Below are positions 2,739-43,209 of a DNA stretch of 43,269 nt, in pieces. A program made the translations under genes and the position numbers. Under the pieces are notes generated by a model. That model saw only the letters and a list, made by a program, of their open reading frames with translations. It ran no database searches and was not told where the DNA came from. Source of the DNA: a virus; the UHGV virus genome UHGV-0027971, one strand, 5' to 3'. Numbering within the stretch: position 1 is the stretch's first letter; each line of letters starts with the position of its first letter.

Positions 2739-2755
2739 AATCATTCCCACTCAAT
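2739..2755. repeat. att core direct repeat, left copy (AATCATTCCCACTCAAT)
   Basis: Identical 17-mer at 43193..43209, where it overlaps the last codons and stop of guaA; an integrase gene lies about 200-300 bp to the left of each copy. Confidence 0.75.
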
Positions 2756-2865
2756 TATTTACGGACACCATAACTAATTGAGTGATAACATTTTTCCAAA
2801 GATGAATTTTTCTCGTACCGTTTTATATACCGTCACCGGAAATCAGTACCATGAAAAATGCCATG

Positions 2866-3348
2866 CTATCTGGTCAGGGTGTCGTATTGTTTTTCGCAGA
2901 CTCTTCCGGCTTCGGCTGCCCGGTCAGCATACTCTGCCAGTTGTCTGTTTCTCTCGAGAGATTTGCTGAGCACGTCGGCAAGCAAAACTCCGGTGTCTGC
3001 GGCTGACGTCCCAGCGCCGACAATGGCGTTATACTGCCTGAGCTGCTCACGGATGGCAAAGAGTTGTTGCTGCAACCGGCCAGCGCGAGCGGCAGCATCA
3101 AGAGCATCATTGCGCGCCTGGTCGATCCTCTGCTGCGCTTCACGTTCATTGATCGATTTCTCCTGTTCGTAGTGCTGACGAACTATCTCATCTTCAGCTT
3201 TGCGGTCTTCCTTCGCCTGCGCATACCCGGCATCGTACTGACGACTGCCGTGTGCATTCCAGGCTACAACTCCTGATATGACCAGAACAGCAAGCATCGC
3301 CATGATAACCAACTGTTTCCAGTATGCTTTTGCGAATGCCCAGATCAT
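2866..3348 (-). CDS. i-spanin (Rz-like lysis protein)
   Basis: 160 aa, N-terminal hydrophobic anchor then a charged coiled-coil-like region; last gene of the lysis cassette; contains an embedded lipoprotein ORF. Confidence 0.75.
2874..3149 (-). CDS. o-spanin lipoprotein (Rz1-like), embedded in the +1 frame of the Rz-like gene
   Basis: Signal peptide with lipobox LALAGC, proline-rich mature part; entirely inside 2866..3348 in another frame. Confidence 0.7.
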   Translation of the reverse strand: MNVKRSRGSTRRAMMLLMLPLALAGCSNNSLPSVSSSGSITPLSALGRQPQTPEFCLPTCSANLSRETDNWQSMLTGQPKPEESAKNNTTP

Positions 3349-3974
3349 ACCGCCAGCACCTTACTGGCAGTTATGTATCGCGCGCGCCGGTCATCAATGC
3401 CGTTCCGGCCACCATTGATAAGCAGAGTTACACGTGCAATATCTCCGGTATACTTCATGCAGCCTTTGCTGGAGAAGAACCACGCCGCGCTACGAGCCGC
3501 GTATTCGTCCTGCGCCAGCAGTTCAGGACTCTCCAGCAGGTCAACCTTAAGACCGTTTCCACAGTCACGATAGTTATTCAAACCGGTAATCTGGATAAGT
3601 CCGCGCCCACGGTAGTTCCAGCCGTCACCAGGGGCATTGTTCCCCATGCGTTTGCTGTATACCAGATTGGCGATCGCTCGCTGCCTCTCCAGTGGCAACG
3701 ATGGTTCACCCTGCCGGCGCCCGAGGGAATTAGCCTGGCCCTGCGTCAGTCGTCCGGCACGGACGAAACCAGCCAGCCCAGCAACGCTGTAATTGAAGCT
3801 CTCAACGAGCTGGGTAAAGCCAGTGCTTTCATGCCCGGCCTGGGCAATAAACATAGCCTGATCCAGCGGCTTGATAATGCCAAACTCTTTCATGGCAGCC
3901 ACAATGTGCGGATGCCAGCGTGTTGCCAGCGCCAGGCTAACGCCGGCAGCTTTCTGAAACTCGTTAATGTCCAT
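3345..3974 (-). CDS. endolysin (lysozyme-like, probably glycoside hydrolase family 19 type)
   Basis: 209 aa; motifs [25 protein letters not shown] resemble GH19-type phage endolysins; sits between holin-like genes and Rz. Confidence 0.8.
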
Positions 3975-4269
3975 GTTGCGACCTCGATATCTTGAAGATT
4001 TGCACGACGTTGCCGCGCGTCTTCAGCACCGCGGCGAACATCACAGCATTGATAACGACCTCAGAAAGATCTGCGGTCATGGGGAAGTGGTACAGGTATG
4101 AGTACGCGGTGCGAAGCGGGATACTGGCCGCCGCCACGATGAGGAAATAGGCTATCCACCCACCCCAGCGGCGGTGGCGCGATCCGTTGCGCTGGAAGAA
4201 CATCACCCTCAGCGCTATCCCGCCGCAGATGAGGGCATTAGCGATAAGCAGCAGATCATGGCCTGTCAT
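3964..4269 (-). CDS. holin/antiholin-like small membrane protein
   Basis: 101 aa with about three hydrophobic helices, directly upstream of the endolysin. Confidence 0.5.
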
Positions 4270-4669
4270 CGTCTTTTCCTCCCGGGATTAAATCGCGCGG
4301 ATTGTCAGAGCGGTGATACAGCCATATCCCGACCCGCACCGCGACAATTGCCGCAACGAACGCGCCGGCGGAGTAGACAATACCCCGCTCGAACGAGTCC
4401 TGTGTGATGGTGGGGATCATGCTGGCAACGCCGATAAGGATTGATGCTGTGGGTTTGTAGAATAGAAGGCCGCAGAGAAAGCTGAGTAGAGCCAGGAGAA
4501 CACGGCGCTTGACAGGATACTCAACAGCTGAGGTAACAAAAATTACCGCCCCTGCCAGCGATCCCAGCGCCACTTCTGGCGGTACGCCGGCGATAACTGC
4601 CGCCAGCGCACCATAGCTAAGCCCCTGATTTATCGTGTCAGCGGTTAGCGATGCAGACATGATGACCAC
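4256..4669 (-). CDS. holin-like membrane protein
   Basis: 137 aa, multiple transmembrane segments and a charged C-terminal tail ([18 protein letters not shown]); first gene of the lysis cassette. Confidence 0.55.
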   Translation of the reverse strand: MVIMSASLTADTINQGLSYGALAAVIAGVPPEVALGSLAGAVIFVTSAVEYPVKRRVLLALLSFLCGLLFYKPTASILIGVASMIPTITQDSFERGIVYSAGAFVAAIVAVRVGIWLYHRSDNPRDLIPGGKDDDRP

Positions 4670-4762
4670 CGTTTACTATGCATGATGAACCTCCTTAGCT
4701 TGGTAGGCTCATCATACACAATAAACCAAATATGACTAAACGGTAATATTTAAGTTTATCCA

Positions 4763-4948
4763 CTATTCATCTTTGGTAACAGAGGCGCTATCAAACCAGT
4801 CTGTCGCTACCTCATCATCAACCGAATAAGTTATAACGTATTTCACTGGAGTATCTTTCATTACCGTATACCCGATTACCTCTCCGGCAATGCCTGGGAT
4901 ACCATTAACAGATACCGTAACCATTTGACCAATATTTATAATGCTCAT
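4763..4948 (-). CDS. hypothetical small protein downstream of the tailspike
   Basis: 61-aa ORF abutting the tailspike stop (ATGA overlap). Confidence 0.4.
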   Translation of the reverse strand: MSIINIGQMVTVSVNGIPGIAGEVIGYTVMKDTPVKYVITYSVDDEVATDWFDSASVTKDE

Positions 4949-7245
4949 GACGTCACCGTAAAATTAAATAATAATGAATCGGTAGAAGAAGCCAGCCATA
5001 AAGACTGAGTTTTATTTTTCGGAGCTTCAATCAAATCCATTGATGCTTTTGCAGAGCAATAAAACCCGTAATCTCCTGTTGCAGCTATTGAAATCTCAAC
5101 CAGATGATTAGCATTTATTGCAGCTGTGATAGAGGGAGTTGACGTAGTTTCAGCATCCCAGTTATCCCATTCGTGAGATAGTATCCTTGCGCCGGTAGCC
5201 CAGTTGTCATTGACAGTACCATTTGAGATCAGCACCACAGCCCTGATGCGAGAATATTTTTGCGTCGTCCTTGTTCTGAGGAACGCTGTAACATTAACAA
5301 TTGCAGCGTTAAATCCACCGACAACACCGAAAGTCCAGAGAGTTTTACTACTGTTGACCCCGGCACCGGATGCGACAGGAGGAAAATCTGTGGTTATTTT
5401 CCCAATACTCCCTGTATTAATGATTCTTGGGGCATATTTAAATTCGGCAGGGACCACGGTATTAGCCCCAAGAACAAATGCCATGGATGATGCCCTTAAT
5501 TTGTTGCCTGTTACGTTAGGATGGGTATCATCATTCATCCACCCTTTTGATACGGCGTTTTCATAAGTACCTAGGGTCTGCCTGTCATCAAAATAGTAAT
5601 AGCCATTATTCAAAGCAAAATTTCTCCTGGCTATCCTGTAACTCTCTACGGCACTAGCATATTTGGGGTTAGTCGTCTTACTTGTTTCCCCTGGTTCAAC
5701 TATTAGCGCAACCGACGATGATGGTTTTATCATATTGGTATATGTTATCAAATCCGCCTTAAACTGCTCAACAGTTCTCCCTTGCCCCATATCATTAGTT
5801 CCCGCATTAATAACAACTAAAGCAGGGTTTAATGCAGCTTTCCATTTCGAAATAAAAACAGAGTCCTGCGATACAAACTCATCAAGTCGCCTGCCGCCAC
5901 GTGCAATTGTTGCTGTTCTTATACCTCTTGGGTTTGGTGTATATATAAAATCAAGTGCAAAAATAACTACATTACCGGTAATTTCTGAAAGTGTGATGCT
6001 GGAGGCATTTGTCGCATCTCTGAATACAGAAATAACGCCAAGATCCAAATCGGCGTTACTGTTAACGCTAGTCACAGTGCCGCCTGCCGTTATATTAAAG
6101 CTACCACCACCTGATTGTTTTAAATAATACAAATTACACTTATCCCATGGCAATTTGGGATCAGCGCCAGCTTGCTCAGTACCACTTGCTGAAGGCCATT
6201 GAATACCTCTACCAGCAGGAGCATATTTTGCTGGGGTAGCATTCATCGGTAAATCTCGTAAACTGGTGAATGTTCCTAAAGCATAAAATGCCTGATCACC
6301 TTCTATCTGAAAGGCCGCTTGATCAAAAGCATAAAATCCAGGTCCACCATAATCAAATGATGAATGCAGAAGTATTTTCAGGTATCTAACATAATTGGTG
6401 TTACCTGCCCCCTCATTAAGTGAATCAATGCCAAACTGAATCAGGCCTCCGGTTTGTAAAAGATAAGCAAGTGGATTATTTTTAACATATGAATTTACAT
6501 CCATTCGATCTAGTGTTGCTCCTACCGTTGTTTCATGAAACCCTGACAAGTTAGCGCCTGTAGGTTTTGCAAGTTGGATCAACACATCAGAAGCGCTACC
6601 AGGAATGGCAGGGACAGGATTTGGTTCACCATAATCGTTGAAAGTGAAAACTGTATTTTTCCTTACGTCCACAGAAGGAAGAAAAGATATTTCATCTTCA
6701 GGTACTCTCACCGTCCTTTTAAACAAATTCTCAGAATGCTGATTATTACTTGAATCTCCGGCATCTACATAATTCTTTGTTGCAGCATCCTGTGCCTGTG
6801 ACGGGTCACGCAGATTACGAATGCGGTTGTTGAGTGCGTCGTAATAGCTCGCGATGAACGACGGCTTACGCAGCGCCAGGCGGAGAAAGCTGAAGCACTG
6901 CTGGATAAGCATGGTCAGCTTGTCGAATGCATCCTCATGCACCTCTGCGAAAAATTTCCCCTGGTTACGCAGATCAGTCTCCTGGGTAACAGGCAAGTCA
7001 CGTGAGATAGAGATTTGCCATCCGTTGGCCAGAGGTGACATCAACACAACGCTCCCACCTGAATAGCTTCCCGCCCCGGTAACTGAGTAATCGGTATCTA
7101 AAGTCAGAACTGTAATATTTTCGTTAAGGTCAGCGACCTGGACAGTGAGATCTGACTTCTTGAAGATGCGAAACGTGTACGGGAAAGATGTGGTAACGCC
7201 GTTCCCTGTGTAGTCGTTATGGTCGACTTCGGTTGAGACCGTCAT
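4945..7245 (-). CDS. tailspike/tail fibre protein with SGNH (GDSL-like) hydrolase domain
   Basis: 766 aa; N-terminus MTVSTEVDHNDYTGNGVTTSFPYTFRIFKKSDLTV typical of podovirus tail-fibre head-binding domains; C-terminal part has SGNH-like blocks (VVINAGTNDMG, NDDTHPN). Confidence 0.8.
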   Translation of the reverse strand: MTVSTEVDHNDYTGNGVTTSFPYTFRIFKKSDLTVQVADLNENITVLTLDTDYSVTGAGSYSGGSVVLMSPLANGWQISISRDLPVTQETDLRNQGKFFAEVHEDAFDKLTMLIQQCFSFLRLALRKPSFIASYYDALNNRIRNLRDPSQAQDAATKNYVDAGDSSNNQHSENLFKRTVRVPEDEISFLPSVDVRKNTVFTFNDYGEPNPVPAIPGSASDVLIQLAKPTGANLSGFHETTVGATLDRMDVNSYVKNNPLAYLLQTGGLIQFGIDSLNEGAGNTNYVRYLKILLHSSFDYGGPGFYAFDQAAFQIEGDQAFYALGTFTSLRDLPMNATPAKYAPAGRGIQWPSASGTEQAGADPKLPWDKCNLYYLKQSGGGSFNITAGGTVTSVNSNADLDLGVISVFRDATNASSITLSEITGNVVIFALDFIYTPNPRGIRTATIARGGRRLDEFVSQDSVFISKWKAALNPALVVINAGTNDMGQGRTVEQFKADLITYTNMIKPSSSVALIVEPGETSKTTNPKYASAVESYRIARRNFALNNGYYYFDDRQTLGTYENAVSKGWMNDDTHPNVTGNKLRASSMAFVLGANTVVPAEFKYAPRIINTGSIGKITTDFPPVASGAGVNSSKTLWTFGVVGGFNAAIVNVTAFLRTRTTQKYSRIRAVVLISNGTVNDNWATGARILSHEWDNWDAETTSTPSITAAINANHLVEISIAATGDYGFYCSAKASMDLIEAPKNKTQSLWLASSTDSLLFNFTVTS

Positions 7246-7330
7246 GTTAAATCTCCAGATAGTCGCAGCACCCGTTGCGCCGCATATCCGGTTATTTTAT
7301 TACCTGAAAAACCACATATGGATAGATAGA

Positions 7331-7346
7331 CTGTGAATTCGAACAG
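7331..7346 (+). promoter_or_regulatory. candidate second SOS-box-like site (CTGTGAATTCGAACAG)
   Basis: CTGT-N8-ACAG spacing, but the spacer is not the usual AT-rich sequence. Confidence 0.3.
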
Positions 7347-7401
7347 ATATTACCTTTCAGGTAATTTTCAAAACGTGCTGGATAGCAAATAAATTATTTG
7401 A

Positions 7402-7421
7402 TACTGTATAAATATACAGTT
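7402..7421 (+). promoter_or_regulatory. LexA (SOS) box TACTGTATAAATATACAGTT overlapping a promoter (-35 TTGATA at 7398..7403)
   Basis: Near-consensus CTGT-N8-ACAG with AT-rich spacer, 20 bp upstream of the 7441 start. Confidence 0.75.
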
Positions 7422-7440
7422 ATTGCATGGAGAAGATAAG

Positions 7441-7698
7441 ATGCAGCAGTATCACTATCCACTGGAAGAGGGATTTACCGAAAGGATTCACACGCCGGGA
7501 GGCGTCAGGTCACTGGTGGAGGGATCGCACTTGATGAAATTACTCCGGGATCTCGATAAGGATGGATTTAATGTCGATGGCCCACTTGCCGAACTGACTG
7601 CACTGATTAACTACGTCACCAGCTCACAGATGTCTATGCGGGATCTGCAAACACATCTCGACTATTGTGCCGAACAATTACGAAAACAAACCCGGTAA
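7441..7698 (+). CDS. SOS-regulated small protein, stand-alone homolog of the shared antirepressor C-terminal module (Tum-like role inferred)
   Basis: 85 aa from ATG 7441 (RBS GGAGAAG; track start 7423 is a forced TTG). Aligns with the C-termini of the proteins at 9345, 11074 and 41064 (IH.P.GV..L.E.S.LM.LL...DG..V.G..AELT...Y......RD.QTH..Y). Confidence 0.6.
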   Translation: MQQYHYPLEEGFTERIHTPGGVRSLVEGSHLMKLLRDLDKDGFNVDGPLAELTALINYVTSSQMSMRDLQTHLDYCAEQLRKQTR

Positions 7699-7705
7699 AT
7701 TTAAA

Positions 7706-7721
7706 GGCCGCAAGAGCGGCC
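7706..7721. terminator. hairpin terminator between convergent genes
   Basis: GGCCGC-aaga-GCGGCC followed by a T-rich tract; between the 7441..7698 (+) and 7721..8449 (-) 3' ends. Confidence 0.55.
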
Positions 7722-8449
7722 TATCGTTTCGCTTTGTGCTCATCCCAGCACGTTTTGCACCATGCCATTAAACCATCCGCATTTTGATTATTAGGGTAAA
7801 AGCTGGTTCGTTTTCTGCGGACATTACAAATTGGGCACCACTTCATATGGCGTGTATTCTTTGGGCCATCGAGACACCTTGCACACCACTTAGTCAATCC
7901 ATCTGGATTTTTTGACGATTTCCTGAATTTTTCATATGGAAGGTTTATTCTGCATCGCAAGCACTGCTTGCTACCACTTGAAACTCTGTTAGCTGATTCT
8001 TCTTTTGGCGGCGATACAGAAGGTATTCTTGCTGGCTCTGATACTGCCTGAGGTGCTTTTTTAGATGACTGAGACGATGTGTCATCACCAGGGAATCTTC
8101 CATGATATGCCGGACGCGTTGACACTCCAGGTGGAAGCTCTGCTGTAAATGGCTTTGGCTGAATCAGTTGCCTCTCTTTTGCTAACTCCTGCTGTTTATA
8201 ATATGTCTGGATTACCGCACTATCATAAGCAGGAGGTGCGGAAATATTAGGCGCATTACCTCCAGTTTTTTGAAACTGAGTAGAGGTGTGTTCTATCACC
8301 TGTGTACGATTAATCGTTATCTCCCCATCTTCGGTCTTTATCGTTTTGTTATGATTTACGACCGTACGATCAGAGATCTTAGTCTTGTTCTGGTTGATAA
8401 CGTAAATAATCACCGCAACCACACCAACAACTATCCAGAAAACTTCCAT
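7721..8449 (-). CDS. hypothetical membrane-anchored protein with two C-terminal zinc-ribbon-like motifs
   Basis: 242 aa; N-terminal hydrophobic helix, low-complexity S/P-rich linker, then CLRC..(x20)..WCARC and CPIC..(x20)..WCKTC. Confidence 0.5.
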   Translation of the reverse strand: MEVFWIVVGVVAVIIYVINQNKTKISDRTVVNHNKTIKTEDGEITINRTQVIEHTSTQFQKTGGNAPNISAPPAYDSAVIQTYYKQQELAKERQLIQPKPFTAELPPGVSTRPAYHGRFPGDDTSSQSSKKAPQAVSEPARIPSVSPPKEESANRVSSGSKQCLRCRINLPYEKFRKSSKNPDGLTKWCARCLDGPKNTRHMKWCPICNVRRKRTSFYPNNQNADGLMAWCKTCWDEHKAKR

Positions 8450-8604
8450 TGCTTTTCCTCACAATAACATTACCTTAAAGGTAATATCTTGCTTTCAGGT
8501 GATCAAGCATTAAACTCCATCAACCAAATACGGTTGATTTTGATATTTATTCTCGCTTATCATTACCTTTGCGGTAAATTTACATCGCACTCCTCTTGTG
8601 CCAT

Positions 8605-8690
8605 AGTAATCAGGCACTGGCAAAATCCAGTGCCGGGATTGGCGTCCCGGATTACTAGTAGGCGCATACCACGCCAGACGTGGTTTTTTT
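8605..8690 (+). ncRNA. candidate structured small RNA or leader element ending in a rho-independent terminator
   Basis: Outer stem TAGTAATC/GATTACTA enclosing hairpins GGCACTGG-caaaat-CCAGTGCC and CCGGGA-ttggcg-TCCCGG, then terminator CCACG-ccaga-CGTGG + T7 (8669..8690). Function unknown. Confidence 0.3.
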
Positions 8691-8845
8691 ATGCGTATAG
8701 CACAGTCATATCCGAATTATGGTGGGCTGGGCAGGGGCACCGAAAGGTGCGCCGGTACCTACTAGGCCGGTACGCCAACCTTGTCCAGTTCACCACCAGC
8801 AATTGGCGTTGCGGTGGTAGGTAACTTACTAGTAGAGGTATCGCT

Positions 8846-9352
8846 ATGCCAGGCCAAAAAATCTCAAACGACGATCTGTATTGGTTAATTTCTAATTCTC
8901 CACTCCTTCTTATGCTAAGGCAAGAAAGTGCACCACTGGTCAGTGAATTGATTAGCTGTAGAAATAGAATGTGGGATGAAGGGGCAGATTTAGATACCAA
9001 TTTGTTTGATCATCTTATGCAACTAGCAGTCGATAACAAGGCAAAACTACGCTCTGAATACAACGCTTATCCAGAAATAGCAAAATACCTTAACGCTGAA
9101 ATACTTGGTGGACCAGGTCAACCAGACCTAAAAACAAAAGATGGTTACCCTGTTGAGGTGAAGGTAGATACTTTTTCTCCTTCAGCATTAAAACAATTAT
9201 TAAGGTATATGGATGCTTCTGGCGCAGATTTTGGTTTTGCTTGTGCAAAAACTCTTTCTGTAAAACTCCCTGAAAACATAAAGTTCATCCAGTTAGATTA
9301 TAAAGATAATTGCTATTTCGTCGTGAAAGATGGAGGCAATGAAAATGCGTAA
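8846..9352 (+). CDS. hypothetical protein (168 aa), possible PD-(D/E)xK-like motif
   Basis: ORF with RBS GAGG; sequence KDGYPVEVKVD resembles a D..E.K nuclease core but this is a weak by-eye guess; AT-rich. Confidence 0.5.
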   Translation: MPGQKISNDDLYWLISNSPLLLMLRQESAPLVSELISCRNRMWDEGADLDTNLFDHLMQLAVDNKAKLRSEYNAYPEIAKYLNAEILGGPGQPDLKTKDGYPVEVKVDTFSPSALKQLLRYMDASGADFGFACAKTLSVKLPENIKFIQLDYKDNCYFVVKDGGNENA

Positions 9353-10064: not shown

Positions 10065-10184
10065 CAGAACGGCGGCACAGGGATGTGCAAAACGGAACTA
10101 TCGTGACATGTCACAGGCCGCTTTCGCGGCCTTGTTTTTAACGAATGCCACCGCCGCCTGGGCGGGAATCCGCAGACACAAAAA

Positions 10185-10201: not shown

Positions 10202-10208
10202 TAAAGAA

Positions 10209-35686: not shown

Positions 35687-35787
35687 TTTTTCCGCCCCTT
35701 TTTGTTATTGATATTGGCTATTTTGCACAATTGGAAAATTTGATCAACCAGATTTGGTTTTTTATTACCTTTGAGGTACGAATAGAT

Positions 35788-35812: not shown

Positions 35813-35834
35813 TACAGAGGGTTGTGGCTGGATA

Positions 35835-36065: not shown

Positions 36066-36101
36066 AGCTATTGCCTGATATTTATTTCAGATAATAAATA
36101 T

Positions 36102-36164
36102 TCACCCATAAGGTAACAAAAATCAAGGATAGTTACCTATGAGGTGCATTTACCTGATGGGTAA
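36102..36164. promoter_or_regulatory. operator cluster of the immunity switch (three TTACC-N5-GGTAA-type sites)
   Basis: TCACCCATAAGGTAA (36102..36116), TTACCTATGAGGTGC (36133..36147), TTACCTGATGGGTAA (36150..36164) in the 154-bp gap between divergent regulator genes. Confidence 0.65.
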
Positions 36165-36219
36165 TATTGCTTTAAATTGAATCATCTACTGATTCATATA
36201 TGAGGCGATTTTCCAGAAA

Positions 36220-36804
36220 ATGAAAAGTATCCAGGACGTCCGCAGGCAAAATCTCAACGACTTGATCGACCGTGAATTCAATGGTGTTCAGACGCGGATG
36301 GCAGAAAAACTTGGAACTCAGGCAAATCTGGTAAACCGCTGGGCTCTTGGCAAGAAGGTTATCGGCGACCAGGTTGCGCGAAAAATTGAAGCTGCCGCCA
36401 ATAAACCCCGTAACTGGCTTGATATCGATCGCTCGCTTTCTCAGGAAGGTTTTCAGCCTGTCGGCCCAAGCGACATTGGCCAGCTGGCGGCTCACAACCT
36501 GGAACGCTGGATGAGCGAAAGCCGCGACCTTTCAACACAGGGAAAACTTCACCGCGCATCCGGCGTAGCCCAGGTGACAATCAGCCGCCTGTTAAACAAT
36601 GAGGTCAGCGTTTCCATTTCCACCCTGGAGAATGTTGCATCCGCATTCGGGCGTCACGGCTATGAATTACTGATTCACCCGCACGACCCTGCGACCATCA
36701 ACTATGATCGCTCGCGCTACGCATTGTTACCCGAAACCGAGAAAGCAAAGATCGAAAGTTACATTGAATTTGTCATCAACCAGAACGAAAAAAGCAAACA
36801 ATAA
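36220..36804 (+). CDS. putative prophage repressor with two HTH domains and no recognisable autocleavage domain
   Basis: 194 aa; HTH-like segments VQTRMAEKLGTQANLVNRWALGKK and ASGVAQVTISRLLNNE; no LexA/CI-like peptidase motif seen; occupies the cI position. Confidence 0.6.
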   Translation: MKSIQDVRRQNLNDLIDREFNGVQTRMAEKLGTQANLVNRWALGKKVIGDQVARKIEAAANKPRNWLDIDRSLSQEGFQPVGPSDIGQLAAHNLERWMSESRDLSTQGKLHRASGVAQVTISRLLNNEVSVSISTLENVASAFGRHGYELLIHPHDPATINYDRSRYALLPETEKAKIESYIEFVINQNEKSKQ

Positions 36805-36825
36805 AACTATAGTTTTCAGCAAGTA

Positions 36826-36848
36826 AGCCGCCTCATGGCGGCTTTTTT
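36826..36848 (+). terminator. rho-independent terminator after the repressor gene
   Basis: AGCCGCC-tcat-GGCGGCT followed by TTTTTT. Confidence 0.75.
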
Positions 36849-36861
36849 ATTGCCAGATAGA

Positions 36862-36938
36862 TTACCTTACGGGTAATTTTTTTAACTCATATCTATTGAC
36901 ACCAAACCAAATAAGCATAATTATTACCTCAACGGTAA
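36862..36938 (+). promoter_or_regulatory. pL-like promoter flanked by two operator sites
   Basis: -35 TTGACA (36895..36900), AT-rich -10 region near 36917..36923; TTACCTTACGGGTAA (36862..36876) upstream and TTACCTCAACGGTAA (36924..36938) just downstream. Confidence 0.55.
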
Positions 36939-36957
36939 CAAACCGAGGTAACAAGTT

Positions 36958-37110
36958 ATGCAGTGGAAAATCATCAACGGTTGGTACTGCGTTACTGCAT
37001 GCGGATTCATGAGCTGGAAGTTCCGCACCTTACAGGAAGGCATTAAGTGGGCTTTCGTCAGCAAAGAAGCTCGCGATGTGGCCAACGATAACGAGATATG
37101 GGAGGGCTGA
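36958..37110 (+). CDS. hypothetical small protein (50 aa), first gene of the plus-strand early operon
   Basis: ATG preceded by SD GAGG at 9-nt spacing; below the ORF-track size cut-off; W/C-rich. Confidence 0.45.
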   Translation: MQWKIINGWYCVTACGFMSWKFRTLQEGIKWAFVSKEARDVANDNEIWEG

Positions 37111-37112
37111 TA

Positions 37113-37412
37113 ATGAACGTTAATCAGCAGAAAAATCTTCAAAAAATCATGCTGGCATTCGACAAGGACTACCGTCTGTCAGAACAGCTATATGACCGAC
37201 AAGTTGAACTGATTGAGAGTATCCGGCTTCATCAACTGGCATCAACTTTCGACGTTGTAACAGTTAAAGGCGTTCGCCAGGAAGTACTGGAGGCCGCTAA
37301 AGACAGCCCTGAGTTCGAAGAACTGATGGATTCCTACCGGCGCGAGGCAATGGCAATTATCGCCCGCTGGGATCTGGCTGATCAGCTTGATGGGCAGAGG
37401 GACGCGGCATGA
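37113..37412 (+). CDS. hypothetical protein upstream of exonuclease
   Basis: ATG 37113 with strong SD GGAGGG; 99 aa; no family recognised. Confidence 0.45.
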   Translation: MNVNQQKNLQKIMLAFDKDYRLSEQLYDRQVELIESIRLHQLASTFDVVTVKGVRQEVLEAAKDSPEFEELMDSYRREAMAIIARWDLADQLDGQRDAA

Positions 37413-38230
37413 ATCCGGGAATTTATTTCGATATCAGCAACGAGGACTACCACGCCGGTGACGGCGTGAGTAAGTCGCAACTGGACATGGTTGCCAAGAA
37501 TCCGGCGCTTCTTAAATGGGTTCAGGCAGCACCAGAAGACGAAGAGAAAAAGTCTGCACTGGATATGGGAACCGCATTGCACTGTCTGCTTCTGGAGCCT
37601 GGAGAATTCAACAAACGCTTCATTGTTTCACCGAAATTCGATCGTCGGACGAAACAAGGTAAAGCTGACGAAGAAGCATTTCTTCGTGATGTAGCGGATA
37701 TGGGGATTACGGTACTTGATGCCGAGCAGTGGCGGAAACTGGAGCTGATGCGTGATAGCGCAATGGCTCACCCGGCGGCACGCTGGATGCTGGAAGCACC
37801 TGGTTACTGCGAAGCATCAATGTACTGGAACGATGAAGAGACGGGTGAGTTGTGCCGAATTCGTCCAGACAAATGGCTGAACGAGCACAACGTGATCGTC
37901 GACGTGAAAAAGGTTGCAGATATGGACCGTTTTGCACGTCACATCGAGGAATTCCGCTACCACGTGCAGGACGCAATGTACCGCGAAGGCGCAATGAGGG
38001 TTACTGGTCAGCCGCATGGTTTTTTCTTTCTTGCCGTGAGCGAAAGCATTGATTGTGGTCGGTATCCGGTACGCGTGTTCGGGCTGGATGCGCCGGATGT
38101 CGATGCCGGGCACGCTCTGTTCCGCCGGGATCTGAATACCTATCACGAATGCCGCATCAGCGATGAATGGGGCGGCGTGGAAATTATTAAACGCCCTGAG
38201 TGGGCACGCAAACAGGATATGTACGTATGA
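37409..38230 (+). CDS. phage exonuclease (YqaJ/lambda-Exo-like PD-(D/E)xK recombination nuclease)
   Basis: 273 aa; N-terminal GIYFDISNEDYHAGDGVSKSQL and acidic/K motifs; paired with the downstream RecT-like gene. Confidence 0.75.
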   Translation: MNPGIYFDISNEDYHAGDGVSKSQLDMVAKNPALLKWVQAAPEDEEKKSALDMGTALHCLLLEPGEFNKRFIVSPKFDRRTKQGKADEEAFLRDVADMGITVLDAEQWRKLELMRDSAMAHPAARWMLEAPGYCEASMYWNDEETGELCRIRPDKWLNEHNVIVDVKKVADMDRFARHIEEFRYHVQDAMYREGAMRVTGQPHGFFFLAVSESIDCGRYPVRVFGLDAPDVDAGHALFRRDLNTYHECRISDEWGGVEIIKRPEWARKQDMYV

Positions 38231-39144
38231 GCAACGAAATTGCAATCACCAATGATGTGTTGGCTATTCGGGGAATCGATGAAGTTACATGGAGCGCTCT
38301 GAAAAACAGTATTTACCCTGGGGCAAAAGATGAATCGGTAATGATGGCAGTCGATTACTGCCGGGCGCGTCAACTCGATCCTCTTCTTAAGCCGGTACAC
38401 CTGGTACCAATGAGTGTTAAAGACTCGAAGAGTGGAAAGAATGAATGGCGCGACGTGGTCATGCCTGGCATTGGACTTTATCGCATTCAGGCCTACCGTT
38501 CCGGCGATTACGCAGGCGCTAATGAACCTGAGTTCGGTCCAGATGTAACACAAACGCTTTCAGGCGTGGAGGTTACCTTCCCTCAGTGGTGTAAGTACAC
38601 CGTCAGCAAGCGAATGGCAAGCGGGGAAATCGTAGAGTTTAGCGCCAAAGAATACTGGATTGAGAACTATGCAACTGGGGGGCGTGACACATCGGCACCA
38701 AATGCCATGTGGAAAAAGCGCCCTTATGCGCAGTTGGCAAAATGCGCAGAGGCACAGGCATTACGTAAAGCATGGCCGGAGATTGGTCAACAAGCCACAG
38801 CTGAGGAAATGGAAGGTAAATATATCGACTCACCTGACATTATTGAACGTGACGTAACTCCAAGAAGCCAGGCAAAGCACGGCACAGCATCCAGCATGAA
38901 CAGTCTGATCAACGCTAAAACAGTGAAAAAGCCTGATGAGCAAACGCGTAAAGCGGATAGCCGTGATCCAGAAGAAATGCTGATGGCCTTTACCAGCGCA
39001 GCGATGAATTACAGCACTGTCTCCGAACTGGATAAGGCTTACAAATACATTGCACAAAAACTTTCAGATGATGACGAACTGCTGGCAAAAGCCACCGACG
39101 TTTACAGCGTTCGTCGGGAAGAATTAAACGAAACATCTATGTAA
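38227..39144 (+). CDS. RecT/Bet-family single-strand annealing protein
   Basis: Motif KRPYAQLAKCAEAQALRKAWPE; start ATG 38227 overlaps the exonuclease stop (ATGA). Confidence 0.8.
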   Translation: MSNEIAITNDVLAIRGIDEVTWSALKNSIYPGAKDESVMMAVDYCRARQLDPLLKPVHLVPMSVKDSKSGKNEWRDVVMPGIGLYRIQAYRSGDYAGANEPEFGPDVTQTLSGVEVTFPQWCKYTVSKRMASGEIVEFSAKEYWIENYATGGRDTSAPNAMWKKRPYAQLAKCAEAQALRKAWPEIGQQATAEEMEGKYIDSPDIIERDVTPRSQAKHGTASSMNSLINAKTVKKPDEQTRKADSRDPEEMLMAFTSAAMNYSTVSELDKAYKYIAQKLSDDDELLAKATDVYSVRREELNETSM

Positions 39145-39193
39145 CCACCACCGCGGCGCCACACGCGCCGCACTGCAACCAAGAGAGGTATTT

Positions 39194-39442
39194 ATGAAAG
39201 GTGCATTAGGTAAGAAGGAACTCCTGGCGGTGGTGCCACTGTCATGGAGCACTATCGACCGTATGGAGCGCGCAGGGGAATTTCCTAAACGCTGGTATAT
39301 CACCGATAAACGCTGCGCATGGAACCGTGATGAAGTTGAGCGTTGGCTTGATGAACGTCAGGCAGCAAGCCCGGCAGAGTTCCAGGGTAAAAAGCCTCCT
39401 GTTCAGCAACGTGTATATCGTCCTGTGAGCAACGCTGCATGA
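39194..39442 (+). CDS. AlpA-family small HTH regulator/excisionase-like protein
   Basis: 82 aa; LAVVPLSWSTIDRMERAGEFPKRWYITDKRCAWNRDEVERWLDE resembles AlpA/Xis-type HTH proteins. Confidence 0.6.
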   Translation: MKGALGKKELLAVVPLSWSTIDRMERAGEFPKRWYITDKRCAWNRDEVERWLDERQAASPAEFQGKKPPVQQRVYRPVSNAA

Positions 39443-39551
39443 GTGCGCTGCTAAGGCACTGGAGCAAATGGTCAGGATGGTACTTATTCCTGGCCTCTGT
39501 TTCAGCATGGCTTTATCTGCTGGCATTAATTTTCAGAGAGGGTTGGATTAA

Positions 39552-39851
39552 GTGAGAAAGTTAAGCCGACTTGAAAAATACCACATGAATAAGGTTTCAA
39601 TGCGCAGTCCGTCAAAGATTGTCGCCGTTACTCCTGCGGCGATAGAGATCGAAAAACGCGCGATTGAAAGAGAGAAAAAAGGGCAGTTCCGCATTGCCGC
39701 TCACCTTTGGCTTCAGTGTATGGATGTTGCTTCTGGTGATGTTGAACGTGCAAGGATCGCGGTTCGCAGGGACCAATGTATCACAAAAGGTAACGGCCTT
39801 CGCCGTGGCGACTATAGCGGCATAGGATGTTGTGGGGTGGTTTATGACTAA
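39552..39851 (+). CDS. hypothetical protein (possibly PerC-like activator; weak)
   Basis: 99-aa ORF (GTG start) upstream of and overlapping the methyltransferase start. Confidence 0.4.
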   Translation: MRKLSRLEKYHMNKVSMRSPSKIVAVTPAAIEIEKRAIEREKKGQFRIAAHLWLQCMDVASGDVERARIAVRRDQCITKGNGLRRGDYSGIGCCGVVYD

Positions 39852-40494
39852 GAAATACACACTAATCTATGCAGATCCACCCTGGGTATACCGGGACAAA
39901 GCCGCAGATGGTAATCGCGGTGCCGGTTTTAAATATCCAGTTATGAGTGTGCTGGATATCTGCCGCCTTCCTGTGTGGGATTTGACCGCTGAAAACTGTC
40001 TGTTGGCCATGTGGTGGGTGCCAACACAACCACTCGAAGCACTAAAAGTTGTTGAAGCCTGGGGATTTCGTCTGATGACGATGAAGGGCTTCACGTGGAT
40101 AAAATGTGGTAGTCGACAACCAGATAAACTGGTTATGGGTATGGGGCACATGACTCGCGCCAATAGTGAAGATTGCCTGTTTGCGGTAAAGGGAAAACTA
40201 CCTACGCGCATTAATGCAGGGATCGTTCAGTCATTTACCGCACCGCGGCTTGAGCATTCAAGAAAACCAGATATCGTTCGTGAAAAACTTGTGCAATTGT
40301 TAGGCGATGTTTCTCGCATTGAACTGTTCGCCAGACAGACGTCTCATGGCTTCGATGTTTGGGGTAATCAGTGCGAAGACCCGGCAGTGCAACTACACCC
40401 TGGATACGCGTTGGATATTGCCGGATTAACAAATGCATTCAGCAATGCTCCGCTGTCACCAACAGACAACCAGGGGCGGGAGCGTGCAGCATGA
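39844..40494 (+). CDS. MT-A70-family N6-adenine DNA methyltransferase (orphan)
   Basis: Motif IYADPPW near the N-terminus; no adjacent restriction endonuclease gene; start ATG 39844 overlaps the previous stop. Confidence 0.8.
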   Translation: MTKKYTLIYADPPWVYRDKAADGNRGAGFKYPVMSVLDICRLPVWDLTAENCLLAMWWVPTQPLEALKVVEAWGFRLMTMKGFTWIKCGSRQPDKLVMGMGHMTRANSEDCLFAVKGKLPTRINAGIVQSFTAPRLEHSRKPDIVREKLVQLLGDVSRIELFARQTSHGFDVWGNQCEDPAVQLHPGYALDIAGLTNAFSNAPLSPTDNQGRERAA

Positions 40495-40739
40495 AGCAGA
40501 TTATGGTTGCACACAACGGCGTCAGGTTTGAAGTCGTCATGGTTTTGACTAAGTACCGCAATGATGAGGTATTGCAGAGAAAAGAAACTGTAACTTACCG
40601 TTATAAACACCGAAGTTCAGCTGTTAGAAGATTACGGAAGATTACGGAAGAGCTAAAAAATGATCCTCATCGTGTTATTGAGGTAAAAGGCAACCCATAT
40701 AAAATCACAACTTCAGTGGAGCTAAGACATATGCAATAA
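40491..40739 (+). CDS. hypothetical small protein
   Basis: 82 aa from ATG overlapping the methyltransferase stop; contains a 10-bp tandem duplication at 40631..40650. Confidence 0.45.
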   Translation: MKQIMVAHNGVRFEVVMVLTKYRNDEVLQRKETVTYRYKHRSSAVRRLRKITEELKNDPHRVIEVKGNPYKITTSVELRHMQ

Positions 40740-41011
40740 AATCACGCCTGACGAATCGCGATTATCTCGCTATTGGTATTGCAGAGATTGCTGGACTCAG
40801 TGGCGCATGATTTGACAATGCCGCCAGAGCTATCGCATACTGACCGCACTAGAACTTCAAAGCGGTCACCCGCACCCGATAGCTTTGCGGCTTTTTTATG
40901 CCTGCAATTTGGCATAGTCACATCCGTACAAAGGTCGGGTGGAGAGGCGTAATACAATACCCAAAAGGGGAATATGCCCGGAGCGTCTTTGAAGGCTCTA
41001 GTTGACACCCG

Positions 41012-41034
41012 ATCACCAGCTACTAACTGGTGAT
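41012..41034. promoter_or_regulatory. palindrome ATCACCAG-N7-CTGGTGAT next to -35-like TTGACA upstream of the third antirepressor gene
   Basis: 8-bp inverted half-sites; differs from both the LexA box and the TTACC-N5-GGTAA motif. Confidence 0.4.
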
Positions 41035-41063
41035 TGCTAACTAAAACTTCAAAGGAGGTCATC

Positions 41064-41720
41064 ATGACCAGTCAACTCATCCCCGTATTCAACGGCACTA
41101 TATCTAACGAAACAGCCCTACTTTGCAATGCCCGCGATCTGCACGCTTTTTTAGGTGTTAAAAAGGTGTTTGCAGCATGGATTACAAATCGAATTTCAGA
41201 ATACGAATTCATTGAAAATCAAGACTATATTTTGCTTTCCAATTTGGGAAAGCAAACATCTGGTAGAGGCGGCCACAACCGCAAAGAGTACCACCTCACC
41301 CTCGATACAGCCAAAGAACTAGCAATGGTCGAGCGTAACGAAAAAGGTCGTCAGGTACGACGCTACTTCATTGAATGCGAGAAACGTTTAAGACAACAAG
41401 AAACAAAAGTGGAGAAGGTCTTGTCAGGCTTCATGCCCGCCATTATGGAGGCGATCAAGCTGGAAGACAAAAAAGAATACAGCGCCCCACTGAAGCCCGG
41501 CTACCGCAGTCTGATTCATTCTCCGTCTGGTGTTCTCGGCCTGACGGAGAACTCACTGCTGATGAATCTGCTGAACCAGTTACAGGAAGACGGGCACGAC
41601 GTATCGGGCGCGGCGGCGGAGCTGACCACCATGTTCTGCTACATCGTCGGTGTGAGCAAATGCCTGCGTGATATCCAGACGCACGCGGAGTACATCAACG
41701 ACAAGGCAGGGTTCTTCTGA
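41064..41720 (+). CDS. antirepressor-like protein (Bro-N/AntA-like N-terminal domain + shared C-terminal module)
   Basis: Start ATG 41064 after strong SD AAGGAGG (track start 41034); C-terminal ~95 aa near-identical to those of 9345..10064 and 11074..12012. Confidence 0.75.
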
Positions 41721-41751
41721 CGGCGGCGGCACAGGGATGTGCCGGGCAAAA

Positions 41752-43002
41752 TTATTCCCCCGCCATCCACTTCTCAAACTTCGACGGGGAGAACGGAATC
41801 AGATCCGTATGCTCCCCGTTAATCCAGGAATCAATCATATCGGACCACTGCTGCAACATGTAGGCGCGCTGTCTGGCGTATTCCGCTTTGTTATATACGG
41901 CGCGCACACCTTTCTGCTCATGTGCCAGAGCCTTTTCAATCCAGTCTGAAGGATAACCAGCCTCATGCAACAACGTACTGGCTGTACGGCGCATATCGTG
42001 TACGGTGAAGTCCTGAATATGCTCACCATCTTCATTTATTATTTTCACCGTTCTGTCGATCAGAGAGTTCAGCGCGGCATTAGATAATGGCTTCCGGAAA
42101 TTGTAACGACCAGGAACCAGATATTCACTTCCACCAGCGCACATCTGCAACCCGACCAATATATCCTGTGCCTGTTTAGGCAGGTAAATAACGTGCGCCC
42201 GGCTTCCCTTCATACGGTCTGAAGGAATTGTCCATGTCCATTTTTTAAAATCTATTTCATCCCACGTTGCATTGGTGAATTCGCCTTTACGAACCATAGT
42301 GATAAGCACCAGCTTTAAAGCCATTTTCATAGTGCCCATAGCGCCAATGGCATCCAACGTGCGGAAGAACAGGCCAATTTCTTCTGGTGTCAGTGTTCGC
42401 TCTCGTGGTTTAAATATGGCGATAGACGAAGGTTTAATGTCAGCCGCAGGATTAAACAAACCATGACCACGGTCATTGGCGTGACGGTATACGCTGCTGA
42501 TGATCTCCCGGGCCTGCACTGCTGTTGCCCGGCCACCGCGTTCGACAATCCGGTCACACAAATCACGAACCATCGATGTGGTAATTTCAGCCATCATTTT
42601 GTTGCCAAGAACCGGAAGTATGTCACGGTCGATCACCGCCTGCTTCATTGCGCGGGTACTTTCAGCCAGGATGACGTGTTTCATATAACTGTCGGTATGT
42701 ACCGCAAATGTCTCGGCACCACGAATCTTTTTGATACCGTCACGTTTAGCCGCAGCCGGCGACTGGCCTGCTTTAAGCAGCTTCTTTGCAGCAATCAGTT
42801 CTTCCCGCGCTTCTGCCAGGCTGATACCGTCACGCCCATACTGCCCGATTACCAGTGTTTCGCGGCGACCGTTGATACGGTAGTCATAGCGAAACGAGAC
42901 CGTGCCTGACGTAAGCACAGCTACATACAGCCCGTCACGATCGGAGACCTTGTACAGTTTGTCCTGCGGCTTGAGGTTTTTTAATTTTGTATCGGTAAGC
43001 AC
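41752..43002 (-). CDS. int: tyrosine recombinase / integrase, P4-type (prophage)
   Basis: 416 aa; C-terminal HDMRRTASTLLHEAGY..WIEKALAHEQKGVRAVYNKAEY; adjacent to the right att copy. Confidence 0.9.
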   Translation of the reverse strand: MLTDTKLKNLKPQDKLYKVSDRDGLYVAVLTSGTVSFRYDYRINGRRETLVIGQYGRDGISLAEAREELIAAKKLLKAGQSPAAAKRDGIKKIRGAETFAVHTDSYMKHVILAESTRAMKQAVIDRDILPVLGNKMMAEITTSMVRDLCDRIVERGGRATAVQAREIISSVYRHANDRGHGLFNPAADIKPSSIAIFKPRERTLTPEEIGLFFRTLDAIGAMGTMKMALKLVLITMVRKGEFTNATWDEIDFKKWTWTIPSDRMKGSRAHVIYLPKQAQDILVGLQMCAGGSEYLVPGRYNFRKPLSNAALNSLIDRTVKIINEDGEHIQDFTVHDMRRTASTLLHEAGYPSDWIEKALAHEQKGVRAVYNKAEYARQRAYMLQQWSDMIDSWINGEHTDLIPFSPSKFEKWMAGE

Positions 43003-43111
43003 AATTCACCCGTATAGAAACCATTTTCATGACGGTATGAGAGTATACCTTTAAGGTAATACCGTCACCTGTACCGACGAAAAATATGGTGTAGAGTGAA
43101 TAGAAATGAAT

Positions 43112-43146
43112 ACATAAAAACAAAAACCCTCTGTAAAAACAGAGGG
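43112..43146 (-). terminator. rho-independent terminator (minus-strand sense) downstream of guaA, inside the prophage att arm
   Basis: CCCTCTG-taaaaa-CAGAGGG with A-run 43112..43126 on plus (U-run on minus). Confidence 0.55.
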
Positions 43147-43192
43147 TTAAATTAGTATCTGAATAGGAATGAGTTGCTATGAGTTAGCTGTT

Positions 43193-43209
43193 AATCATTC
43201 CCACTCAAT
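43193..43209. repeat. att core direct repeat, right copy (AATCATTCCCACTCAAT) overlapping the guaA stop
   Basis: Identical to 2739..2755. Confidence 0.75.

What the first reader, a model, noticed from the sequence alone, without database searches (positions are those of the whole stretch)
2739..43209. Two elements with homologous P4-type integrases inserted in tandem at the 3' end of guaA
The 17-bp core AATCATTCCCACTCAAT occurs at 2739 and 43193, the latter overlapping the guaA stop. Each copy is preceded by an integrase gene in the same orientation and by a minus-strand terminator that would replace the guaA terminator. The left arm sequences show reuse of the same module: ACACAAAAACAAAAAAGCCCGC..GCGGGCTT at 2660 resembles ACATAAAAACAAAAACCCTCTG..CAGAGGGTT at 43112. 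Element 1 has an IS1 end inside it and may be a decaying remnant or satellite.
Basis: partly seen in the sequence, partly recalled or inferred. Interest (0 to 1): 0.55.

Follow-up and report, generated by a model that had tools for sequence, protein, structure and literature searches.

The report
Prophage beside island remnant at guaA

Summary
AATCATTCCCACTCAAT occurs exactly twice, at 2739 and 43193. The right copy covers the last four codons and the stop of guaA. Each copy lies next to a minus-strand P4-type integrase gene and an intrinsic terminator. The two integrases are 53% identical.

The two copies bracket one element, a complete 40.45-kb Uetakevirus prophage (95% identical to TL-2011b; integrase region about 98% identical to phiV10). 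Its published attP/attB core is this same 17-mer.

The second element lies left of 2755. Bases 75-2755 are 99.9% identical to the integrase end of a 13.7-kb island found directly next to guaA in 119 of 5,426 complete E. coli genomes. That island is of the GIsul2/PIME1 type, and its integrase is 86.6% identical to GIsul2 Int. In the window it stops at an IS1 end (1-74). Relatives with the same IS1 junction have lost or rearranged most of the island.

The same IS1/island junction occurs without a phage and with a different phage variant. The likely order is therefore island, then IS1, then phage into the guaA-proximal hybrid site. The "satellite" idea is not supported. Both elements, the site and tandem accretion are already described, so interest is low.

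The parts
1..74 (.). Terminal 74 bp of IS1. It truncates or interrupts the island at 74/75, and the window ends inside the IS.
   Evidence: 74/74 identical to the end of IS1A of K-12. The junction corresponds to L001 12000/12001. The same junction is present in L009, L012, L011 and L013.
75..2738 (-). Integrase-proximal end of a GIsul2/PIME1-type integrative mobilizable element (a remnant in this window). It includes its attP-derived integrase arm (2434-2738).
   Evidence: Window 75-2755 is 2678/2681 identical to a 13.7-kb island that lies between yfgI and guaA in L001.
490..1119 (-). Island ORF of 209 aa with no family assignment, conserved next to the island integrase.
   Evidence: No Pfam hit. 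Annotated as hypothetical in L001 and L008. The exact protein is listed in 284 index blocks of the public collection (24 contigs read).
1243..2433 (-). Island integrase Int1 (396 aa), P4-type tyrosine recombinase, intact.
   Evidence: Pfam domains. 86.6% aa identity to GIsul2 Int on IncC plasmid R16a. Candidate catalytic residues R238, H335, R338, H361 and Y370 are invariant in a 5-integrase alignment.
2672..2693 (-). Island-borne intrinsic terminator. It follows guaA in island-only genomes; here it follows the phage Rz gene.
   Evidence: The same hairpin is present in the GIsul2 and MS8345 island arms.
2739..2755 (.). Middle att core: a hybrid site with the island integrase arm on the left and the phage int-distal (Rz-side) arm on the right.
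2756..43192 (-). Complete Uetakevirus (phiV10/TL-2011b/epsilon15-like) prophage, 40.45 kb including one core. Gene content: lysis cassette 2866-4669, GDSL tailspike 4945-7245, internal virion and tail proteins 13470-22702, major capsid 24516-25508, portal 26508-28187, TerL 29532-31007, TerS 31004-31678, replication 33909-35511, cro-like 35835-36065, repressor 36220-36804, exonuclease/RecT-like 37409-39144, methyltransferase 39832-40494.
   Evidence: TL-2011b covers 81% at 95.2% identity; phiV10 covers 44% at 93%. Pfam and PHROGs annotations.
2839..2864 (+). Candidate arm-type integrase-binding site in the phage int-distal arm: GAAATCAGTACCATGAAAAATGCCAT. A near-copy lies in the island integrase arm at 2581-2610.
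   Evidence: 18/20 shared positions plus a shared GAAATCAG. Conserved in phiV10, with a similar motif in the L001 island distal arm. Function is inferred only.
39194..39442 (+). AlpA-type excisionase/regulator of the prophage.
   Evidence: phrog_66, excisionase and transcriptional regulator. phiV10 has an AlpA family protein in the same upstream neighbourhood of the integrase (p36).
41752..43002 (-). Phage integrase Int2 (416 aa), P4-type.
   Evidence: Pfam domains. The DNA is 98.3-98.8% identical to the integrase regions of phiV10, ZX5 and TL-2011b.
43125..43148 (-). Phage-borne intrinsic terminator that now ends the guaA transcript. Its stem, CCCTCTGT/ACAGAGGG, is the same as the native K-12 guaA terminator stem.
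   Evidence: Annotated as a terminator in phiV10.
43193..43209 (.). guaA-proximal att core: phage integrase arm on the left, guaA on the right.
43195..43269 (-). [quoted passage not shown]

Best explanation
This is a tandem accretion at the guaA 3'-end attachment site.

A GIsul2/PIME1-type integrative mobilizable element first integrated through its P4-type integrase. That left a guaA-proximal junction which keeps the full 17-bp core and the guaA-side flank. IS1 then inserted into the island, and in related genomes it removed or rearranged most of the island.

Later a phiV10/TL-2011b-like temperate podovirus recombined its attP with that guaA-proximal junction. Its integrase is 53% identical to the island's and recognises the same core. 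This placed the prophage between guaA and the island stump and created the hybrid middle site at 2739-2755.

Both elements carry a copy of the last guaA codons and stop, plus their own terminator, so guaA stays intact. The prophage keeps both attP arms, its integrase and an AlpA-type excisionase, so it should still excise precisely and restore the island-guaA junction. The island stump probably cannot excise.

Shown here: the sequence anatomy, the homologies and the population states. Taken from the literature: the activity of the two integrase families at this site. Inferred: the order of events and the present mobility.
For: - **Repeat and guaA overlap:**
- **Integrases:** homologous, with the same domain architecture and conserved candidate catalytic residues.
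- **Prophage identity and completeness:**
- **phiV10 attP:** it carries the 17-mer between the integrase terminator and Rz.
- **In-silico excision:** it gives 381/382 identity to the island-only junction and 311/322 identity to phiV10 attP.
- **Published cores:** attgagtgggaatgatt for phiV10, epsilon15 and ZX5, with verified integration at the guaA 3' end (PMC9782041). GIsul2 Int-dependent excision and integration at guaA with core GAGTGGGA (PMC9376610).
- **All four occupancy states exist:** empty K-12, island only (L001), phage only (strain 214-4), and tandem (the window; VE-V11-M, R18, MS8345 and others).
- **Order of the two elements along the chromosome:** 7 of 5,426 complete genomes have the island-arm|core|phage-Rz-arm junction, and none has the opposite junction. 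The phage integrase arm is in 542 genomes; 568 genomes have a phage-type arm contiguous with guaA, so the counts leave no room for many exceptions, although the two sets were not matched genome by genome.
- **Order of events:** the identical IS1/island junction occurs without a phage (L012 plus 17 similar places, L009), with this phage (L011, 100% identical to window 1-11119), and with a different phage variant (L013).
Against: - The order of events is not proven. Phage-free genomes with the same IS1 junction could be cured lysogens. Either order of arrival gives the same junction sequences.
- What lies beyond the IS1 in this genome is unknown, so 'remnant' rests on relatives (L009, L010, L014).
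- The opposite-order test used only one type of island distal arm.
- No excision or activity data exist for this locus.
Confidence: 0.88

Rival explanations
1. Reverse order of arrival. The phage lysogenized an empty guaA site first, and the island later integrated into the phage's distal att site (yfgI side).
For: The junction sequences are compatible with either order. GIsul2 Int can use several att-like sites (PMC9376610).
Against: The same nucleotide-exact IS1/island junction is found in phage-free genomes and next to a different phage variant. That would require repeated phage loss or replacement after island entry. [quoted passage not shown] The island arm type is contiguous with guaA in 119 of 121 genomes.
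Confidence: 0.08
2. The whole interval is one composite element (phage plus island) that moves as a unit, or the island stump is a phage satellite that depends on this prophage.
For: The integrases are related and share a core. A candidate arm-type motif is shared between the island integrase arm and the phage distal arm. The N-terminal arm-binding domains are 61% identical.
Against: Each element occurs alone at guaA in hundreds of genomes. Intact island relatives encode RepA, TraJ, TrbJ and TrbL and no capsid, packaging or helper-exploitation genes. The PIME preprint reports that excision depends on conjugative helper plasmids. The island's distal end is cut off by IS1.
Confidence: 0.03
3. 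The left 17-mer is a chance repeat or a homologous-recombination scar, not an att site.
For: None beyond the short length of the repeat.
Against: 0 of 100 shuffles gave 2 matches. The site is the exact boundary between sequence colinear with phiV10 and sequence colinear with the island-only locus. It equals the published att core.
Confidence: 0.01

Closest known systems
Uetakevirus temperate podoviruses phiV10, TL-2011b, epsilon15 and vB_EcoP_ZX5, which integrate at the guaA 3' end
   Same: Same 17-bp attP/attB core. Integrase region 98.3-98.8% identical at the DNA level for phiV10, ZX5 and TL-2011b (epsilon15 was not compared here). Same int-terminator-attP-Rz layout. Colinear structural, lysis and early genes.
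   Different: The accessory (moron), antirepressor and tailspike regions differ. phiV10 covers only 44% of window 2756-27000, and TL-2011b covers 81%. Here the target was not the native attB but the island-guaA hybrid junction.
GIsul2 and the PIME family (PIME1 subfamily) of integrative mobilizable elements at guaA
   Same: Int1 is 86.6% identical to GIsul2 Int. Same target, containing GAGTGGGA. Same terminator hairpin in the integrase arm. Relatives 99.9% identical over the retained part carry LuxR/AlpA-type regulators, RepA, TraJ, TrbJ and TrbL.
   Different: In the window only int, a 209-aa ORF and the integrase arm survive before IS1. There are no sul2/CR2 or ars genes. The cargo of relatives differs: helicase/DUF2290 in L001, and UvrD-helicase plus ATP-dependent nuclease in L008.
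Tandem accretion of site-specific integrative elements (CIME/IME/ICE/prophage tandems)
   Same: An incoming element with a related integrase uses the gene-proximal att site of a resident, often decayed, element. This gives an attL - element - hybrid att - element array (PMC5704250).
   Different: Here the incoming partner is a complete prophage and the resident is an IS1-eroded IME. I found no paper in the held library that describes this specific pairing at guaA.

Membership tests
Uetakevirus (phiV10/epsilon15-like) prophage | Genome-wide nucleotide similarity and colinearity with named members | tested here: met
   TL-2011b covers 81% at 95.2% identity. phiV10, phiv142-3, HEMP4 and O157 typing phages cover 43-44% at about 93%.
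Uetakevirus (phiV10/epsilon15-like) prophage | attP core attgagtgggaatgatt next to a P4-type integrase; integration at the guaA 3' end | tested here: met
Uetakevirus (phiV10/epsilon15-like) prophage | Complete set of head, tail, lysis, replication and immunity genes | tested here: met
   All the large ORFs examined are open. No IS interrupts it, unlike the copy in strain 214-4.
Uetakevirus (phiV10/epsilon15-like) prophage | Inducible, and produces infective short-tailed virions | not testable with these tools
   Needs induction and plaque or EM assays.
GIsul2 / PIME integrative mobilizable elements | Tyrosine integrase of the GIsul2 Int family, targeting the guaA 3' end (core GAGTGGGA) | tested here: met
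   86.6% aa identity to GIsul2 Int. The arm plus core is contiguous with guaA in 119 genomes. Core reported in PMC9376610.
GIsul2 / PIME integrative mobilizable elements | Co-occurrence of int, alpA, a replicase, trbJ and trbL (the PIME search definition) | tested here: not met
   Within the window only int and a 209-aa ORF precede the IS1 end. The full set is present in relatives L001 and L002. The copy here is therefore filed as a remnant of such an element, not as a functional member.
GIsul2 / PIME integrative mobilizable elements | Two flanking att sites (direct repeats) that allow excision | tested here: inconclusive
   Only the integrase-proximal site is in the window. In L001 the distal repeat is 15 bp. 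In L010 the distal site is deleted, and in L009 the region is rearranged.
GIsul2 / PIME integrative mobilizable elements | Mobilization by an IncP-type conjugative helper | not testable with these tools
   Reported for PIMEs in the bioRxiv preprint 10.64898/2026.01.12.698999.
Phage satellite (P4-like, PICI and similar) | Genes for helper exploitation (capsid remodelling, packaging, helper-responsive regulation) and dependence on a helper phage | tested here: not met
   No such genes are annotated in the retained part or in intact relatives. 119 of the 121 genomes with this island arm have it directly next to guaA with no prophage in between.
IS1 | Terminal sequence identical to IS1 | tested here: met
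   74/74 identical to IS1A. L011 extends 65 bp further past the window's first base (that extra sequence was not itself compared with IS1). The body of the IS is outside the window.

The most novel reading that the evidence does not exclude
The two related integrases may cross-recognise each other's sites. They share the same core and have 61% identical arm-binding domains, and a candidate arm-type motif is shared between the island integrase arm and the phage distal arm. If so, a resident island, or even the orphan integrase of an IS1-eroded stump, would influence phage integration or excision, and occupancy of guaA by one element would hinder the other. This would explain why only 2 tandems with this island type are seen among 5,426 genomes, against about 12 expected from independent occupancy.
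Probability: 0.1. Interest if true: 0.45.

Novelty: new member of a known kind. Interest (0 to 1): 0.15.

Why it matters
The main value is for correct annotation. The interval holds two different mobile elements, a live-looking prophage and an island stump, not one large island and not a phage-satellite pair.

It also gives a clean natural example of an occupied attachment site being reused by a second element with a related integrase. The guaA 3' end is a shared hotspot in E. coli: about 10% of complete genomes carry this phage type and about 2% carry this island type.

The apparent shortage of tandems and the shared arm motifs hint at competition or cross-talk between the two integrase systems. 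That could be tested with the plasmid assays already published for GIsul2.

Tried and rejected
- **Opposite tandem order (guaA-island-phage):** a chimeric junction query (phage integrase arm + core + L001 island distal arm) found no genome with at least 80% coverage. This tests only one type of distal arm. The counts (542 phage arms; 568 arm+guaA contiguous) leave no room for many exceptions.
- **Literature on this pairing:** two full-text searches found only the separate descriptions of each element and the general review.
- **Homology of the two integrase-to-core arms:** a gapped global alignment gave only scattered identity (130 matched positions for the 212-nt arm), apart from the core and the terminator T-tract. 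'Reuse of the same module' is therefore weak. Self-BLAST finds no nucleotide-level similarity between the two int genes.
- **Source genome:** no complete E. coli genome matches the junction at 99% or more. A metagenome contig (L011) is 100% identical over window 1-11119 but also ends in IS1, so the region beyond the IS1 could not be recovered.
- **Phage-only comparator:** it needed two fetches because that copy is inflated by IS66 insertions.
- **Satellite reading:** rejected on gene content and co-occurrence.
Full report

Yes. AATCATTCCCACTCAAT occurs exactly at 2739-2755 and 43193-43209. There is no other match with up to two mismatches, and none of 100 dinucleotide-preserving shuffles gave two matches.

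The minus strand of 43192-43269 translates to [24 protein letters not shown]. This is identical to the C-terminus of K-12 GuaA read from the annotated locus. The right-hand copy therefore covers two bases past the stop, the stop codon (43195-43197) and the last four codons.

To the left of each copy lies a minus-strand integrase ORF: 1243-2433 (396 aa) and 41752-43002 (416 aa). Both have the P4-type architecture Arm-DNA-bind_3 / Phage_int_M / Phage_integrase. They align over 395 residues without a gap at 53% identity. Identity is 61% in the first 90 residues, 44.5% in residues 91-200 and 54% in the catalytic part. R238, H335, R338, H361 and Y370 are invariant in a five-integrase alignment.

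Between each integrase gene and its core there is a minus-strand hairpin followed by a T-run, at 2693-2672 and 43148-43125. The energies are -14.9 and -15.9 kcal/mol, and no shuffle folds as well. Window 1-74 is identical to the terminal 74 bp of IS1A.

**2. What the two copies bracket: a complete phiV10/TL-2011b-like prophage**

- Window 2756-27000 matches Escherichia phage TL-2011b over 81% at 95.2% identity. It matches phiV10 and its relatives over about 44% at 93%.
- The integrase region is 98.3-98.8% identical to phiV10, vB_EcoP_ZX5 and TL-2011b.
- In the phiV10 genome the same 17-mer lies between the annotated integrase terminator and the Rz gene.
- Joining the window's two phage arms in silico (43003-43209 + 2756-2870) gives a sequence colinear with that phiV10 region, 311/322 identical.

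Pfam and PHROGs assign the following:

| Coordinates | Assignment |
|---|---|
| 2866-3348 | spanin |
| 3345-3974 | endolysin |
| 3964-4669 | two holins (named from the annotation of related loci) |
| 4945-7245 | tailspike with a GDSL esterase domain |
| 13470-22702 | internal virion and tail proteins |
| 24516-25508 | major capsid |
| 26508-28187 | portal |
| 29532-31007 | TerL |
| 31004-31678 | TerS |
| 33909-35511 | replication proteins |
| 35835-36065 | cro-like regulator |
| 36220-36804 | repressor |
| 37409-39144 | exonuclease and single-strand annealing protein |
| 39194-39442 | AlpA-type excisionase |
| 39832-40494 | methyltransferase |

The element (2756-43192 plus one core, about 40.45 kb) looks complete. 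The literature states that attgagtgggaatgatt, the reverse complement of the 17-mer, is the attP of phiV10 and epsilon15. It was verified by PCR and sequencing as the attP/attB of ZX5 at the guaA 3' end (PMC9782041). TL-2011b was also reported as inserted at guaA (PMC3293862).

**3. The second element lies left of 2755 and is an island stump**

Window 75-2755 is 2678/2681 identical to E. coli Br_167_kylling (L001). There it is the integrase end of a 13.7-kb island between yfgI and guaA, flanked by a 15-bp repeat, AATCATTCCCACTCA.

That island encodes int, the 209-aa ORF, a regulator annotated LuxR in a sister genome, an HTH (AlpA-type) regulator, RepA helicase, TraJ, TrbJ, TrbL, HigA, a resolvase pseudogene and a helicase cargo. 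Int1 is 86.6% identical to the integrase of GIsul2 on IncC plasmid R16a, where int-alpA-repA-repC-trbJ-trbK-trbL-ars-resolvase-ISCR2-sul2 are annotated.

GIsul2 Int has been shown to excise and integrate the island at the guaA 3' end through 19-bp sites that share GAGTGGGA (PMC9376610). That octamer is inside the 17-mer. A 2026 preprint groups such elements as PIMEs (int, alpA, replicase, trbJ, trbL). Its PIME1 subfamily has divergent alpA and luxR regulators and sits at guaA. That fits the relatives of Element 1.

In the window, however, the element stops at IS1 after int and the 209-aa ORF.

**4. Is it a remnant?**

Exact-protein look-up of the 209-aa ORF recovered informative contigs.

- **L011** (a 74.9-kb metagenome contig) is 100% identical to window 1-11119 and also ends in IS1, so the far side is unassembled.
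- **L009** (a 4.77-Mb scaffold) has the same nucleotide-exact IS1/island junction. It is followed by a 4,380-N gap, then an inverted IS1 end, then an inverted yfgG segment, then another IS1, then pdeF. A 9-bp duplication of the K-12 sequence flanks this, which is the signature of IS1-mediated inversion or deletion. At most about 3 kb is left for the roughly 11 kb of missing island plus yfgH and yfgI.
- **L010** has IS1 joined to the island at the equivalent of window position 458, and on its other side directly to the interior of yfgH. The rest of the island, its distal att and yfgI are gone.
- **L014** has IS1 joined at the equivalent of window position 321.
- **L008** has yet another IS1 with a RepA-to-TrbL deletion.

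Islands of this type are therefore repeatedly eroded by IS1. 'Decaying remnant' is the likely state here, but it is not proven for this genome.

**5. How the tandem arose**

The empty K-12 site reads ...CCCTCTGTAGTAACAGAGGG(terminator)...gggtcaAATCATTCCCACTCAATggtagc. All four occupancy states exist:

| State | Example |
|---|---|
| Empty | K-12 |
| Island only | L001 |
| Phage only | strain 214-4; the native terminator and yfgI abut the phage Rz arm |
| Tandem | the window, VE-V11-M, R18, MS8345 and others |

Deleting 2756-43209 from the window gives a junction 381/382 identical to the island-only junction. The middle site is therefore exactly what results from recombination between phage attP and the island-guaA junction.

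After island integration, the guaA-proximal junction keeps all 17 bases and the guaA flank. The distal junction keeps only 15 bases and has island DNA on its right. That would make the proximal junction the better mimic of attB.

Counts among 5,426 complete E. coli genomes:

| Feature | Genomes |
|---|---|
| Phage integrase arm present | 542 |
| Phage-type arm contiguous with guaA | 568 |
| This island arm present | 121 |
| This island arm contiguous with guaA | 119 |
| This island arm contiguous with the phage Rz arm | 2 |
| Other island arm types contiguous with the phage Rz arm | 5 |
| Opposite junction (phage integrase arm + island distal arm) | 0 |

The five other tandems include MS8345. 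Its middle core is a hybrid, GATCACTCCCACTCAAT, and its phage carries an endosialidase tailspike.

The identical IS1/island junction occurs in three contexts: without a phage (L012 plus 17 similar places, L009), with this phage (L011), and with a different phage variant (L013, 97.5% identical with a different accessory region). The most economical history is therefore island, then IS1, then phage. Cured lysogens could mimic the phage-free state, so I give the order of events about 0.75 and the tandem anatomy itself more than 0.95. [quoted passage not shown]

**6. Consequences (inferred)**

guaA keeps its reading frame, and its transcript is now ended by the phage-borne terminator. The stem of that terminator is the same as the native guaA terminator stem. 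The island-borne terminator now follows the phage lysis genes.

The prophage has both arms, Int2 and an AlpA-type excisionase, so precise excision should regenerate the island-guaA junction. The stump has an intact integrase gene, but its partner att site is at best displaced by IS1.

A 20-nt motif, AGTACCATSAAAAATKCCAT, preceded by GAAATCAG, is shared between the island integrase arm (2581-2610) and the phage distal arm (2839-2864). Related CCATG-type motifs recur in the GIsul2, MS8345 and L001 arms. Together with the 61% identical arm-binding domains, this leaves open some cross-recognition.

Tandems with this island type are fewer than independent occupancy predicts: 2 observed against 12.1 expected, Poisson P about 5e-4. 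This figure is not corrected for phylogeny or host range, so it is only a lead.

**7. Comparison with what is known, and verdict**

The prophage is a member of the phiV10/epsilon15 group at its known site. The neighbour is a remnant of a GIsul2/PIME1-type mobilizable island at its known site. Tandem accretion of elements with related integrases is well described.

I found no paper in the held library that describes this particular pairing, but the same arrangement is present in several public genomes.
- the stated interval is the prophage only;
- 'satellite' is not supported;
- the 'shared module' is limited to the terminator T-tract.

Novelty: a new instance of a known kind. Interest: low (0.15).

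Noticed in passing
window 8614-8800, 12014-12081, 40933-41022: Rfam gathering-score hits lie next to the three antirepressor-type genes. isrK (8614-8690) and C4 antisense RNA (8715-8800) are upstream of the operon holding ORF 8846-9352 and the antirepressor gene 9330-10064. sar RNA (12014-12081) abuts the start of the P22_AR_N antirepressor gene 11074-12012(-). sRNA-Xcc1 (40933-41022) is just upstream of the AntA-like gene 41034-41720.
   Followed up: no
window 9774-10088, 11049-11307, 41430-41743: Three copies, 95-96% identical, of a 255-315-bp segment that forms the C-terminal part of the three antirepressor genes. Two are direct repeats 31 kb apart and one is inverted. They are possible substrates for RecA-dependent deletion or inversion within the prophage.
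   Followed up: partly
window 28836-28912 (+): tRNA-Arg (anticodon TCT) inside the prophage, between the portal and terminase regions. The same tRNA is annotated in the related prophage of strain 214-4.
   Followed up: no
window 43125-43148 vs L003 2406-2434: The phage-borne terminator has the same stem (CCCTCTGT/ACAGAGGG) as the native K-12 guaA terminator and differs only in the loop. The island terminator has a different stem but the same T-tract as the phage one. This suggests past capture of host sequence into the phage attP arm.
   Followed up: partly
L009 11046-16424; L010 10663-11430; L014 10799-11002; L008 8322-9019: IS1 is joined to this island type at four or more different positions (equivalents of window 75, 321 and 458, plus one inside repA). 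Adjacent deletions reach into yfgH, and in L009 there is an IS1-flanked inversion of yfgG with a 9-bp duplication. L010 also has an IS3-family insertion between int and the 209-aa ORF.
   Followed up: partly
window 490-1119 (-): A 209-aa ORF with no Pfam family, always adjacent to this island integrase. The exact protein is listed in 284 index blocks of the public collection. Its function is unknown.
   Followed up: no
window 4945-7245 (-): The tailspike (766 aa) has a GDSL lipase/esterase domain and a weak T7 tail-fibre N-terminal match. Related prophages at the same site carry other receptor-binding modules, for example an endosialidase in MS8345.
   Followed up: no
L017 1738-1755 (strain 214-4); L007 about 7115-7131 (MS8345): Variant cores at distal or middle junctions: AAAGCATTCCCACTCAAT in a phage-only lysogen and GATCACTCCCACTCAAT in another tandem. 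The invariant part is TCCCACTCAAT, consistent with crossover inside the published GAGTGGGA core.
   Followed up: partly
E. coli complete genomes (population counts): The phage integrase arm is in 542 of 5,426 genomes and this island arm is in 121. Only 2 tandems of these two types are seen, against about 12 expected under independence. The figure is not corrected for phylogeny.
   Followed up: partly
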